From: Octopus sinensis
Lineage: Eukaryota
Assembly (NCBI RefSeq): GCF_006345805.1
Contig: NC_043000.1
Location: 82,894,001-82,958,000 of the forward strand
Length of the DNA: 64,000 nucleotides
Reading direction: 5' to 3'
Below, piece by piece: positions 36,801 to 39,800 of the stretch. The position numbers are program-made. The first letter of the stretch is position 1; each line of letters begins with the position of its first letter.

Positions 36801-39800
36801 AGAAAATGAGACTCAGTAAACTCCATCCAACCCTTGCAAGCATGGTGAAGTTTATGTTAAAATGATAATAATATATATGTGGTAGATAGAAACTGAAAGA
36901 ATCTTGTATATATGTATGATGTATGAGTGTTCAGCTTTTGCCGAATGATCTGCACAAATGATTTATTACATCCATGCTGCACATTATTTCATTCTCTCCA
37001 TCAAATTGACATTGACTGAACAGGTGCACGGTGTACCACACTTAAGCTGTTGAAGTGATCACAGAGCAACGTGAAATGAAGTGTTTTGCTGAGGAACACA
37101 ATGCACCACCCAGTCTACAAATTGAAACCACGATCTAGCGATTGCAAGTGCAACACCCTAACCACAAGGCCATACACCCTCTATATAATTCTATATGGGG
37201 GTGGGTAGAATGCACACATATTCAAATTTAAATAGGATTGGTTTAAGGATAATATTTAATATGAAATATAAGTGTAGGTATATAAAGTTTCCATAAGATT
37301 AATCAAAGATTATACTGAGGTCAGCCAAATATAGAGGATGCTGGGAAGAAAATACACACATGAACATATAAAAACTTTCAATATACTGTTTTTAGGTTAC
37401 TCCAAAACAATCTTCAATAATCCCATATGCATTGCATATGGGTTTATTGAAGATTGTTTTGGAGTAACCTAAAAACAGTATATTGAAAGTTTTTATATGT
37501 TCATGTGTGTATTTTCTTCCCAGCATCCTCTATATTTGGCTGACCTTAGTATAATCTTTGATTAATTTGCATGCAATAATCTCAATGCTATATGGTAGTG
37601 AGACATGTACCCTGATGCAGAGGACATATAAAGACTAGAGGAATGAAGTTAGTATGCTCCCTTTGATGAGCAATGTCAGTGTAAATGAGCAACAGAGAAA
37701 AGTTAGGCACAAGAATCATTAGATGCAATGTACAACAGAGAAGACTGCATTGGTTTGGTCAGGTGATGCATATGGATGTGAGCAGTCGCATACAGAAGTG
37801 CTGATCACTTAGTGGAAGAGGTTGACCTAGGAGGTATTGAAGGCTGATCTCAATACACTGAGCCTTGTGAAGGAAATGACAAAGGATCGAGATATCTAGT
37901 GCCTTGCTGTACACACGAAAACCCATTTACTGCAGCAGAATTGATATCCTAAAACCACTTTGATAATGGTTGTCTATGAAGGGCTCTCTCCCATTCCCAC
38001 CTGCATTCTCCCTGCCTTGGCAACCATTTCCCTCTTCATTTCATCCCCTAATACCCATCACTTCTCTATTACCTGAGAGCAGAATAGGCACTTACATCAC
38101 CCTACCCCACTAGCTTTCTCAGTTATTTTCCTTGCCCCCACCCCAAACCACTTCCATTTCTCATTATCTTCCCCTGCCTGCTGTCTCTACGAATCACCTC
38201 CTTTCTATGTCTTCTCTCCAGTGTGTGGTTAACACCTTTTCTGCTATCACCCTCAATGCTCTAGAATGTTTATCGCCCCCACCCCACCTTTCCTATTTTT
38301 CACTTCTGATGATGACCTCTACTCTGCCCATTTACCCAGTCCAAATCTCTGTATCACCTTACTTATTCTCACTACCCCAATGTCCAGACACATCTTTACT
38401 ATCATCTCTCACTTTTGTTGTACTCTCTGATTCACCCTCTCTCTGACTCATTTACCTTTCTTTTCCAACTGGAATATCCATGTATCTACTCTTCAGCAAA
38501 ACACATATCCTTGTTCCTGTATATCTTTAACCATTTAACATTCAGATTAGTCTGAAATGTAATCCTTATTTGTTCATATTGTTATGAATTAATCATGCAT
38601 TATTTTGCAGCTTCACGATTTCAATGATATTATTGTTTATTTTTACAATGACATTGTAGGGTAGATGCGAGAGGCTGGATCTGACCAGTTGGAACATAAA
38701 ACGGGTATATTTTGGCCAGATGTGGCTGGTTTGAATGCTAATAAGTTGATCTCACGTTAACTGGCACAAAGCCCTCCCCCTCCCAGTTGAGGGGTTTTTG
38801 TCTTGCAAGATATTTGGCAACCCTGTCAGTGCTGGTGCCATGTAAAAAACATATATTAATCTGGTGTAGTCATAATGAATAACTAGAGAAGTACAAAGGT
38901 AATAGAGTGTAACTGTAGACATGGCTCTGGAGTGAAAAAGTTCACTTCCCAGACGTGGTTTCAAGTTCAGTCCCACTGTGTGACATCTTGGTCAAGTGCC
39001 TTCTACTCTAGCCCCTGGCCAGCAAAGTCTTGTGAGTGGATTTGATTGACAGAAACTGAAAGAAACTTATTGCACACATATACCTGTACATATCTGTGTG
39101 AGTGTGTCTTCATGTTTATTCACCACTCACTACTTGACAACCAGTGTTTGTTTACATACCTGTAACTTAGTGTTTTAGCAATAAGTACTGGGGTCAAGCC
39201 ATCAGTGACTGAAACAAGTAAAGCATAAATAAATATATTTATAGGTATGTTATTGTGCCTCTTCATCATAATATGGTGTGGTAGTCATAAATATCACTAT
39301 CATATAAGCGGGTGTTATTCATTTCTAATCTTACATGAAAATGTCCAATTATGGATTAATTCAGGGTGCAGTTTAATAAAGTATTGCTACCATCGTATGG
39401 AAATTAGGGTATTTGCTGTGGTTTTTATGCATCCAATTTATTTTCCTTTATTCCATATTAAGCTCAAAACTTATTTGAGAGTATTGGAGTGAAAAATGTT
39501 AACAGTTCTTCTTCACATATTGTTGTTATGCATCTCATGTTTATTTACTGTAGATATGACGACTACTGGTGCATGCCACCAGGACGCATGCCACCACCTC
39601 CTCCTCCACCACTCTCTGGACGTGGCATGAGGCGACCACCTCCCCCACCCCCTCCTCCTGCCAGGGGTGGTTATGGTGAGTACTTGCGTGCATATGTTTG
39701 TTTGCATCATATATGTGTTGTTTATATGTTGTTTATCATATATGTGTTGCATCATATATGTTTGCATCATATATGTGAGTGTTGTTTAGCTAAAAGTCAG

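What the first reader, a model, noticed from the sequence alone, without database searches (positions are those of the whole stretch)
37298..37566. 269-nt near-perfect palindrome inside a Syncrip intron: candidate long hairpin RNA
Seen: two 134-nt arms (37298-37431 and 37433-37566) are reverse complements with two mismatches, one T-T and one G-T, which pairs as G:U in RNA. The arm has no other copy that I could see in the window and no recognisable TE termini. The hexamer TTGCAT occurs at the apex (37432) and again right after the right arm (37567), where an RTE fragment begins. That pattern fits a replication template switch (fold-back copy, then return at microhomology). Inference: the pre-mRNA would fold into about 130 bp of dsRNA, a strong ADAR or Dicer substrate in a lineage known for heavy A-to-I editing. 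It could also affect splicing of the downstream Tyr/Pro exons or extrude a DNA cruciform.
Basis: partly seen in the sequence, partly recalled or inferred. Interest (0 to 1): 0.75.

Follow-up and report, generated by a model that had tools for sequence, protein, structure and literature searches.

The report
Young hairpin-forming palindrome in octopus intron
A real 269-base near-perfect palindrome sits in an intron of an octopus RNA-binding-protein gene; it most likely arose when 134 bases were copied backwards next to themselves, and nothing yet shows that it has a function.

Summary
Arms 37298-37431 and 37433-37566 are reverse complements around T37432, with two mismatches (G37317/T37547 and T37421/T37443) and sharp outer ends. 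The predicted RNA hairpin is -222 kcal/mol (z -35). The arm has no other copy in the 64-kb window.

The palindrome lies in a 3,540-nt GT-AG intron (36014-39553) of an hnRNP R/Q (Syncrip-family) gene. The gene's exons are identical to an Octopus vulgaris protein. The palindrome is 1,284 nt from the 5' splice site and 1,987 nt from the 3' splice site.

Best reading (about 0.6): a young local inverted duplication. If the left arm is the original, 37431 once abutted 37567. That junction held an 11-nt mini-palindrome (5-nt arms around one T), which is the kind of seed that fold-back priming or template switching uses.

A degraded LINE reverse-transcriptase fragment starts by 37585. Neither arm is detectably LINE-derived.

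Rivals: a palindromic non-autonomous transposon (the outer ATTAAT could hide a TA or TTAA target duplication), or an assembly artefact. Genome-wide copy number, the orthologous intron, RNA editing and small RNAs could not be checked.

The class is known: octopus is rich in long dsRNA-forming loci. Interest is modest.

The parts
37298..37431 (+). Left arm (134 nt), inferred to be the original copy
   Evidence: 30.6% G+C. No tandem repeats inside. No other copy in the window.
37432..37432 (.). Single central base T, the axis of the palindrome
37433..37566 (+). Right arm (134 nt), the reverse complement of the left arm with 2 mismatches; inferred to be the new copy
   Evidence: 98.5% identity to the reverse complement of the left arm.
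37427..37437 (.). Apex mini-palindrome (5-nt arms around T37432). Under the left-arm-original reading, an identical 11-mer already existed at the ancestral junction.
   Evidence: Such 5+1+5 mini-palindromes occur at 121 of 63,989 window positions.
37567..37572 (+). Second copy of TTGCAT, directly after the right arm
   Evidence: A hexamer repeats itself at offset 135 at 49 of 63,859 window positions.
37585..37813 (+). Degraded LINE reverse-transcriptase C-terminal fragment with one in-frame TAG and one frameshift. Its 5' limit is not resolved between about 37555 and 37585.
   Evidence: tblastn of LINE proteins with word size 2: P0024 residues 582-623 and 626-659 match collinearly, E 1.6e-4. 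Motif comparison. Stop and frameshift.
36014..39553 (+). Host intron, 3,540 nt, GTAAGA...TGTAG, of the hnRNP R/Q (Syncrip-family) gene
   Evidence: Exact matches of the flanking exon translations to P0152. Lengths.
35898..36013 (+). Upstream exon (end of RRM3 and the linker); start approximate
   Evidence: 39 residues identical to P0152 from residue 403.
39554..39675 (+). Downstream exon (Tyr/Pro-rich)
   Evidence: 40 residues identical to P0152 from residue 442.

Best explanation
This is a young, local inverted duplication. Originally the 134 nt at 37298-37431 ran straight into what is now 37567 onward, the 5' edge of an old, degraded LINE fragment. That junction contained an 11-nt mini-palindrome with 5-nt arms around one T. 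During replication or break repair, a growing 3' end that had just copied this spot paired back on the complementary 5-mer, on the sister strand or on itself. It then copied the preceding 134 nt backwards and rejoined the original path without microhomology. The net result was a 135-nt insertion and an almost perfect 269-nt palindrome. Two later substitutions (one transition, one transversion) give the present mismatches. Because the locus lies in the sense strand of an intron of the hnRNP R/Q gene, each pre-mRNA should carry a 134-bp hairpin. In octopus the most likely fate of such a hairpin is promiscuous A-to-I hyper-editing in the nucleus, followed by decay with the excised intron. Shown: the structure, its uniqueness in the window, its location and the seed motif. 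Inferred: the direction of copying, the mechanism, the age and the RNA fate. No function is indicated.
For: The structure is exact and far beyond chance. The arm is single-copy in 64 kb, and its terminal 17-mer has no relatives beyond chance: 3 matches at up to 3 mismatches, 2 of them the arms themselves, against 1.07 expected. The arms have no tandem sub-repeats. Reading the left arm as the original explains the second TTGCAT. The right flank starts with the central T plus the first five bases of the right arm, so the pre-event junction carried a 5+1+5 mini-palindrome exactly at the future axis. Such a motif is present at only 0.19% of window positions, and the equivalent hexamer coincidence at 0.077%. 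Conversion of a short pre-existing inverted repeat into a long perfect one is the described hallmark of template switching (PMC7954356, passages read). Template switching is reported to create whole hairpins in one step, enriched in introns (PMC10710096, abstract and section 5 read). Yeast fold-back inversions form through single-stranded hairpins (PMC7467729, abstract start in the search listing only). The arms differ at 2 of 134 positions (Jukes-Cantor 0.015). The adjoining LINE fragment already carries a stop and a frameshift within about 76 codons, which fits a palindrome much younger than the LINE insertion. Neither arm shows LINE protein homology: the best hit inside an arm has E 2.6 over 5 residues. 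For the RNA fate: the + strand hairpin holds 92 adenosines, 60 with a 5' U or A. Octopus has the strongest hyper-editing signal of the species compared, linked to long near-perfect dsRNA (PMC5625713, passages read).
Against: No outgroup or second haplotype was available, so the single-arm ancestor is inferred, not seen. The return junction has no microhomology, which is less typical of replicative switching. The 134-nt copied tract is longer than the events I saw quoted (28 and up to 83 nt, PMC10710096 section 5). The TTGCAT coincidence was noticed after the fact, so its nominal probability overstates its weight. Genome-wide copy number is unknown, and about 66% of the O. vulgaris genome is repeats, 15% of it unclassified (PMC13282606, supplement passage). 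The axis coincides with the LINE 5' edge, which this model treats as the source of the seed motif. That could instead point to an event during LINE integration. No expression, editing or small-RNA data were examined.
Confidence: 0.6

Rival explanations
1. It is one copy of a palindromic non-autonomous DNA transposon (a MITE or foldback-like element) that inserted into the intron beside the LINE fragment. The hairpin would then be a property of the family consensus.
For: Its size and fully self-complementary shape resemble the roughly 200-bp palindromic Harbinger repeats of Xenopus, which fold on themselves and are heavily hyper-edited (PMC5625713, passages read). The outer six bases ATTAAT are self-complementary and contain TA and TTAA, so a Tc1/mariner-type or piggyBac-type target duplication could be hidden in the arms. 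Tc1-Mariner, piggyBac and MITE families are annotated in O. vulgaris, some of them recent (PMC13282606, Table 1 and supplement passages). A piggyBac-like transposase remnant may lie at 23319-23765, below the Pfam cut-off.
Against: There is no second copy of the arm or its terminus in 64 kb, though this is weak for a genome of about 2.8 Gb. No direct repeat flanks the element beyond what the palindrome itself produces. The termini do not start with the CCC/GGG of piggyBac-type ends (recalled, not tested). A search with the 45-residue reading frame across the apex found no relative in the protein collection (weak). The model leaves the TTGCAT/mini-palindrome coincidence unexplained. Arms 98.5% alike would require a very recent insertion.
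Confidence: 0.15
2. It is an artefact of library preparation or assembly: a snap-back chimera or mis-join that a consensus step fixed. The animal would then have only one arm.
For: Snap-back at a short palindrome is also how in-vitro polymerases make inverted chimeras (established knowledge, recalled). Perfect palindromes are hard to sequence and polish. Nothing in the window can verify the assembly.
Against: The sequence returns to the proper downstream flank after exactly one arm length, whereas chimeric reads normally stay inverted to their end. The two arm differences show the assembler resolved two distinct arms. There are no gaps or Ns nearby. If the window comes from the published O. 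vulgaris assembly, which I did not establish, that assembly was built from 27.5x nanopore reads and polished with linked short reads (PMC10700109, passages read). Such long reads span a 269-nt feature many times over.
Confidence: 0.1
3. The inverted copy was made during integration of the LINE element itself: aberrant 5'-end processing in which the cDNA or the target 3' end copied upstream target DNA backwards.
For: The right end of the palindrome (37566) lies within about 20 nt of the first detectable LINE homology (37585), and no LINE homology is seen further left. LINE 5' junctions are known for inversions and extra nucleotides (recalled from the L1 literature, no paper read here).
Against: The LINE fragment has a stop and a frameshift in about 76 codons while the arms differ by 1.5%, so the two events look unequal in age unless the arms are homogenised by gene conversion. 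No target-site duplication brackets right arm plus LINE: between 37250-37445 and 37800-38500 the longest shared words are two 7-mers. The 3' limit of the LINE fragment was not defined.
Confidence: 0.07

Closest known systems
Template-switch mutations (four-point model; hairpins created in one event)
   Same: A reverse-complement copy of directly adjacent sequence, a short pre-existing inverted repeat at the switch point, an intronic location and a perfect stem from the start (PMC7954356 passages; PMC10710096 abstract and section 5).
   Different: The 134-nt copied tract is longer than the examples I read (28 to 83 nt). The return is blunt. There is no ancestral sequence to confirm the event.
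Fold-back (snap-back) inverted duplications at DNA breaks
   Same: A hairpin-primed copy of the neighbouring sequence, seeded by a short inverted repeat (PMC7467729 and PMC10622511, abstract starts in the search listing only).
   Different: Those events are usually kilobases to megabases long and end in dicentrics or telomere capture. Here the copy stops after 134 nt and rejoins the same chromosome.
Palindromic Harbinger MITEs of Xenopus tropicalis
   Same: A self-folding palindrome of about 220 bp with a very short loop that is transcribed within genes. It is a documented hyper-editing target, with 65 of 77 adenosines edited in one copy (PMC5625713, passages).
   Different: Those are a high-copy family. 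No second copy of this sequence is seen in the window, and no family is identified.
Drosophila hairpin RNA (hpRNA) loci that yield endo-siRNAs
   Same: A long, nearly perfect inverted repeat transcribed as one RNA (PMC10317233, abstract start in the listing only).
   Different: hpRNA loci have matching target genes and proven 21-nt products. No target or small RNA is known here, and the hairpin is intronic.
Human palindromic AT-rich repeats (PATRR17 about 190 bp, PATRR11 about 450 bp)
   Same: An AT-rich (69% A+T), near-perfect palindrome without a spacer and of similar size. It is predicted to fold as single-stranded DNA at -147 kcal/mol (PMC1851657 abstract start in the listing).
   Different: PATRRs are defined by recurrent translocations and demonstrated cruciform extrusion. 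Neither is known here.
Intronic editing-inducer hairpins (Gabra-3)
   Same: A long intronic hairpin at a distance from exons that could recruit ADAR (PMC3479170, abstract start in the listing only).
   Different: That element is evolutionarily conserved and functionally tested. This one looks young and is untested.

Membership tests
Template-switch / fold-back inverted duplication | New sequence is the reverse complement of directly adjacent sequence | tested here: met
   132 of 134 positions are complementary, with a 1-nt centre.
Template-switch / fold-back inverted duplication | Short pre-existing complementarity at the first switch point | tested here: met
   With the left arm as the original, the pre-event junction holds a 5+1+5 mini-palindrome. 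Background frequency is 121 of 63,989 positions. The test is conditional on the inferred direction.
Template-switch / fold-back inverted duplication | Microhomology at the return switch | tested here: not met
   No shared base at 37566/37567 under either parse. This is not an absolute requirement of the four-point model.
Template-switch / fold-back inverted duplication | Single-arm state in an outgroup or ancestor | not testable with these tools
   No cephalopod genome is held in any open collection.
MITE / foldback transposon | Multiple dispersed copies | tested here: inconclusive
   0 further copies in 64 kb.
MITE / foldback transposon | Target-site duplication flanking the terminal inverted repeats | tested here: inconclusive
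   No direct repeat lies outside the arms, but the self-complementary outer ATTAAT could contain a TA or TTAA duplication.
MITE / foldback transposon | Termini shared with an autonomous element | not tested
Known RNA families, including miRNA precursors (Rfam 15) | Score at or above the family's gathering threshold | tested here: not met
   67 matches with E up to 1 in 30000-45000, none reaching its threshold. The best on the palindrome is MIR169_8 at 56.3 bits against 107, a generic hairpin match on both strands.
hpRNA / endo-siRNA locus | 21-22-nt small RNAs from both arms and a complementary target | not testable with these tools
   No small-RNA data and no genome to search for targets.
ADAR hyper-editing substrate | Long near-perfect intramolecular dsRNA within a transcribed region | tested here: met
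   Predicted 134-bp stem in the sense strand of an intron of an annotated gene. Transcription itself is inferred.
ADAR hyper-editing substrate | Clustered A-to-G mismatches in RNA reads | not testable with these tools
   No RNA-seq access.
PATRR-like cruciform-prone palindrome | AT-rich near-perfect palindrome of hundreds of bp with no spacer | tested here: met
   269 nt, 30.6% G+C, 1-nt centre.
PATRR-like cruciform-prone palindrome | Cruciform extrusion or rearrangement hotspot | not testable with these tools
   Needs experiments or population data.
hnRNP Q/R (Syncrip) gene as host | N-terminal acidic domain, three RRMs and an RGG/Tyr-rich tail | tested here: met
   Pfam hnRNP_Q_AcD 9.6e-18; RRM_1 1.7e-14, 3e-4 and 7.5e-16, searched exon by exon. 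The last exon is 100% identical to P0152, named for Octopus vulgaris.
RTE-clade LINE (neighbouring fragment) | Homology to a LINE reverse-transcriptase C-terminal region | tested here: met
   P0005 and P0024 carry RVT_1, and P0005 also carries the endonuclease domain.
RTE-clade LINE (neighbouring fragment) | Placement in the RTE clade rather than another LINE clade | not tested
   No clade-labelled references were in hand. RTE is reported as present and active in octopus (PMC9115989, PMC13282606 passages).

The most novel reading that the evidence does not exclude
The hairpin is a newly born, lineage-specific regulatory RNA element inside an RNA-binding-protein gene. It could act as an intronic ADAR-recruiting 'editing inducer' that raises editing of nearby hnRNP R/Q exons, or as a young hairpin-RNA locus diced into small RNAs. 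Either would be a directly dated example of template switching creating a functional dsRNA element in a cephalopod.
Probability: 0.07. Interest if true: 0.6.

Novelty: new member of a known kind. Interest (0 to 1): 0.3.

Why it matters
If the single-arm ancestor is found in a sister octopus, this locus would be an unusually clean and unusually long (134-nt) natural example of fold-back template switching. The seed motif would still be legible, and the event would show how a long dsRNA element can appear in one step inside an expressed gene. It would also be a convenient natural probe for how octopus ADARs treat a perfect intronic duplex, and for how long a spacer-free palindrome survives in an animal germ line. 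Taken alone it is one of many dsRNA-forming loci in a genome known to be rich in them, and there is no sign that it alters the host gene.

Tried and rejected
1. Arms as LINE sequence. I fetched LINE proteins through a profile-free search with the RT piece at 16940-17152(-). That gave 300 hits at E up to 1e-3, of which 150 were listed. I ran tblastn with the 18 of 151 held proteins that are at least 280 aa long. Default settings at E up to 0.01 gave 22 rows, none in 36800-38300. With word size 2 and E up to 10, 7 of 18 proteins hit 37585-37935, only P0024 with E below 0.01, and none hit inside an arm. A local search with the 90 residues upstream of the LLYGSETW motif, from the 4 proteins that have it, against 37150-37620 found nothing better than E 2.6 inside an arm. 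Rejected.

2. Exact 5' limit of the LINE fragment. Residue-by-residue comparison with those 4 proteins and a DNA alignment to the other LINE copy at 16.1-16.35 kb (solid only for 37578-37611) could not tell whether homology ends at 37567 or some 10-20 nt either side. Both the present and the inferred ancestral upstream sequences give about two chance-level matches.

3. A target-site duplication bracketing right arm plus LINE: none.

4. Word-indexed protein searches with the LINE fragment and with the 45-residue frame across the apex found no candidates. The tool itself calls this weak evidence.

5. Rfam: only sub-threshold generic hairpin matches.

6. Pfam on the LINE fragment pieces: no family.

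7. My first exact-stem palindrome scan was a poor measure, because the T-T mismatch lies 11 bp from the axis. I rely instead.

8. Not attempted because it cannot bear on the question: scans of the prokaryote, phage, plasmid and E. coli collections. A joined spliced model of the host gene was not searched; exons were searched one at a time.
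Full report
**Observation.** The sequence is as described.
- The repeat finder reports one inverted pair in 36500-38500: 37298-37431 and 37433-37566, with 1 nt between the arms.
- A base-by-base check finds two non-complementary positions. G37317 faces T37547, a G:U pair in + strand RNA. T37421 faces T37443.
- Complementarity ends abruptly at both outer ends: 11 of the next 39 outward pairs match, which is chance level.
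- TTGCAT is at 37432-37437 and at 37567-37572. The window has no N.
- As RNA, 37280-37585 folds into one uninterrupted stem at -222.2 kcal/mol. Shuffles give -54.2 +/- 4.8, z -34.9, and 0 of 100 do as well.
- As single-stranded DNA, the 269 nt fold at -147.1 kcal/mol, z -35.2, 0 of 200.
- In the whole window it is the longest of 53 inverted pairs. The only other pairs above 90% among the 25 shown are TG/TA microsatellites.

**Is it repeated?**
- blastn of the arm (word size 7, E up to 10) finds the arm itself, its partner (98.5%), and then only 10-24-nt chance hits of at most 25 bits.
- The terminal 17-mer with up to 3 mismatches matches 3 times against 1.07 expected. Two of the three matches are the arms themselves.
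- There are no tandem sub-repeats in the arms.
- Rfam in permissive mode gives only generic hairpin matches below threshold. The best on the palindrome is 56.3 bits against a gathering score of 107.
- 64 kb says little about a genome of about 2.8 Gb, and no cephalopod genome is in any collection open to me. The genome-wide copy count, the single most useful test, stayed undone.

**Context.**
- Exon-sized reading frames on the + strand carry an hnRNP_Q acidic domain and three RRMs (Pfam, exon by exon).
- The last exon is 100% identical to a 634-residue protein that NCBI names 'nuclear ribonucleoprotein R-like isoform X1 [Octopus vulgaris]' (P0152).
- tblastn of P0152 gives eight collinear + strand blocks from 13166 to 41276.
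- The three low-complexity exon translations match it exactly: 39, 40 and 38 residues.
- The palindrome lies in the intron 36014-39553 (3,540 nt, GTAAGA...TGTAG). It is 1,284 nt from the 5' splice site and 1,987 nt from the 3' splice site.
- I searched exon by exon and left out any search with a joined spliced model. So 'Syncrip intron' is right at family level, and the host is an octopus.

**The right neighbour.**
- From 37585 the + strand encodes, with one in-frame TAG and one frameshift, the C-terminal part of a LINE reverse transcriptase (MLYGSETC......RRLHWFGQVMHM).
- I obtained LINE proteins from the RT piece at 16940-17152(-) and ran tblastn with the 18 of 151 that are at least 280 aa long.
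- Default settings gave nothing there at E up to 0.01.
- With word size 2, seven proteins hit 37585-37935. The best was P0024, with two collinear segments at E 1.6e-4.
- Its motifs line up with LLYGSETW and RRLRWYGHVERM.
- P0005 and P0024 carry RVT_1, and P0005 also carries the endonuclease domain.
- The RTE clade label was not tested. RTE elements are reported in octopus (PMC9115989 and PMC13282606, passages read).
- No LINE homology is detectable in either arm.
- The true 5' limit of the fragment cannot be placed more exactly than about 37555-37585.

**How it arose.**
- Take the left arm as the original. Then 37431 was once followed directly by 37567, and the new material is the 135 nt at 37432-37566.
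- The right flank begins with T plus the same five bases that begin the right arm. The old junction therefore already contained the 11-nt mini-palindrome now seen at 37427-37437: 5-nt arms around one T, exactly on the future axis.
- Such a motif occurs at 121 of 63,989 window positions. The equivalent hexamer-at-offset-135 coincidence occurs at 49 of 63,859 positions.
- This is what fold-back priming or template switching needs. A 3' end that has copied through the mini-palindrome can pair with the complementary 5-mer and copy the preceding sequence backwards.
- In the four-point description of template switching, conversion of a short or imperfect inverted repeat into a long perfect one is the typical outcome (PMC7954356, passages). 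Whole hairpins created this way are reported as enriched in introns (PMC10710096, abstract and section 5).
- The alternative reading, with the right arm as the original, leaves the two TTGCAT copies as unexplained coincidence.
The bases on either side of 37566/37567 share nothing with the alternative continuations.
- The 134-nt tract is longer than the 28 to 83-nt events I saw quoted.
- Replicative switching and snap-back synthesis during break repair give the same product and cannot be told apart here.

**Age.**
- Two differences in 134 give a Jukes-Cantor distance of 0.015.
- At assumed rates of 1-5e-9 per site per year, that is roughly 1.5-7.5 million years. The rates are assumptions, not octopus measurements, and gene conversion between arms would make the palindrome look younger than it is.
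- The LINE fragment already has a stop and a frameshift in about 76 codons, so it is probably much older. This argues against the variant in which the inverted copy was made during LINE integration.
- No target duplication brackets right arm plus LINE.

**Rivals.**
- A palindromic non-autonomous transposon remains possible. The outer ATTAAT is its own reverse complement and contains TA and TTAA, so a duplication of that kind would be invisible.
- Xenopus has a high-copy, roughly 200-bp palindromic Harbinger family of just this shape (PMC5625713).
- O. vulgaris has Tc1-Mariner, piggyBac and MITE families, and 15% of the genome is unclassified repeats (PMC13282606, Table 1 and supplement passages).
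- That model does not explain the seed motif, and a search with the apex-spanning reading frame found no relatives (weak evidence).
- An assembly or library artefact cannot be excluded from sequence alone. It fits poorly with the clean return to the downstream flank, the two arm differences and the absence of gaps.
- The published O. vulgaris assembly used 27.5x nanopore reads with short-read polishing (PMC10700109, passages). I did not establish that the window comes from that assembly.

**What it does.**
- Nothing here shows a function.
- The pre-mRNA should carry a 134-bp duplex with 92 adenosines on the transcribed strand, 60 of them preceded by U or A.
- Octopus had the strongest hyper-editing signal of the species compared by Porath et al., together with an exceptionally high fraction (4.4e-3) of loci able to form long near-perfect dsRNA (PMC5625713, passages).
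- The likeliest fate is therefore promiscuous A-to-I editing and decay with the intron. The same figures also mean that such a locus is not rare in this genome.
- Dicing into small RNAs, recruitment of ADAR to nearby exons (compare PMC3479170, listing only) and cruciform-driven fragility like the human PATRRs (PMC1851657, listing only) are all possible but untested.
- A direct splicing effect is unlikely given the distances to the splice sites.

**Verdict.** The feature is real and well described, and its mechanism of origin can be argued from the sequence. It belongs to known kinds: a template-switch or fold-back hairpin, and an intronic dsRNA. The functional claims are open.

Noticed in passing
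window 16200-17500, - strand: A second, longer degraded LINE copy: RT domain pieces with many stops. tblastn of the fetched LINE proteins gives E down to 1.75e-21. Its LYGSETW-region DNA is 89.7% identical over 29 nt to 37583-37611. It is probably a related but diverged family.
   Followed up: partly
window 23319-23765, - strand: A 148-residue open frame with a weak piggyBac-type transposase match (Pfam DDE_Tnp_1_7, E 0.0021, 17.9 bits, below the 22.4 cut-off). It may be a piggyBac remnant in an upstream intron.
   Followed up: partly
window 37064-37109, and 61187-61232, 22701-22735, 873-910, 36574-36627: Short dispersed repeat cores at 79-91% identity, probably SINE pieces, just left of the palindrome and elsewhere. 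Many reading frames across the window repeat a 'CHTVGLNPEPCG'-like peptide. The family was not identified.
   Followed up: no
window 465-533 / 791-859: An inverted pair of 69 nt at 86% complementarity, 257 nt apart. It is a more ordinary dsRNA-forming repeat pair.
   Followed up: no
window 30748-30842, 41444-42041, 42783-42861: TG/TA microsatellites that fold on themselves and give sub-threshold Rfam matches to mir-297, mir-466 and similar families. These are low-complexity look-alikes, not miRNA genes.
   Followed up: partly
window 37164-37199: The left flank shares an 8-mer (CTATATGG) and loose similarity with the start of the LINE fragment at 37588-37595. A tblastn hit of E 0.35 reads '...ILYG' there. 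I judged it chance-level.
   Followed up: partly
window 1-13165: Residues 1-56 of the Octopus vulgaris protein P0152 found no match in the window. The first coding exon either lies upstream of the window or is too short or too low in complexity for tblastn.
   Followed up: no
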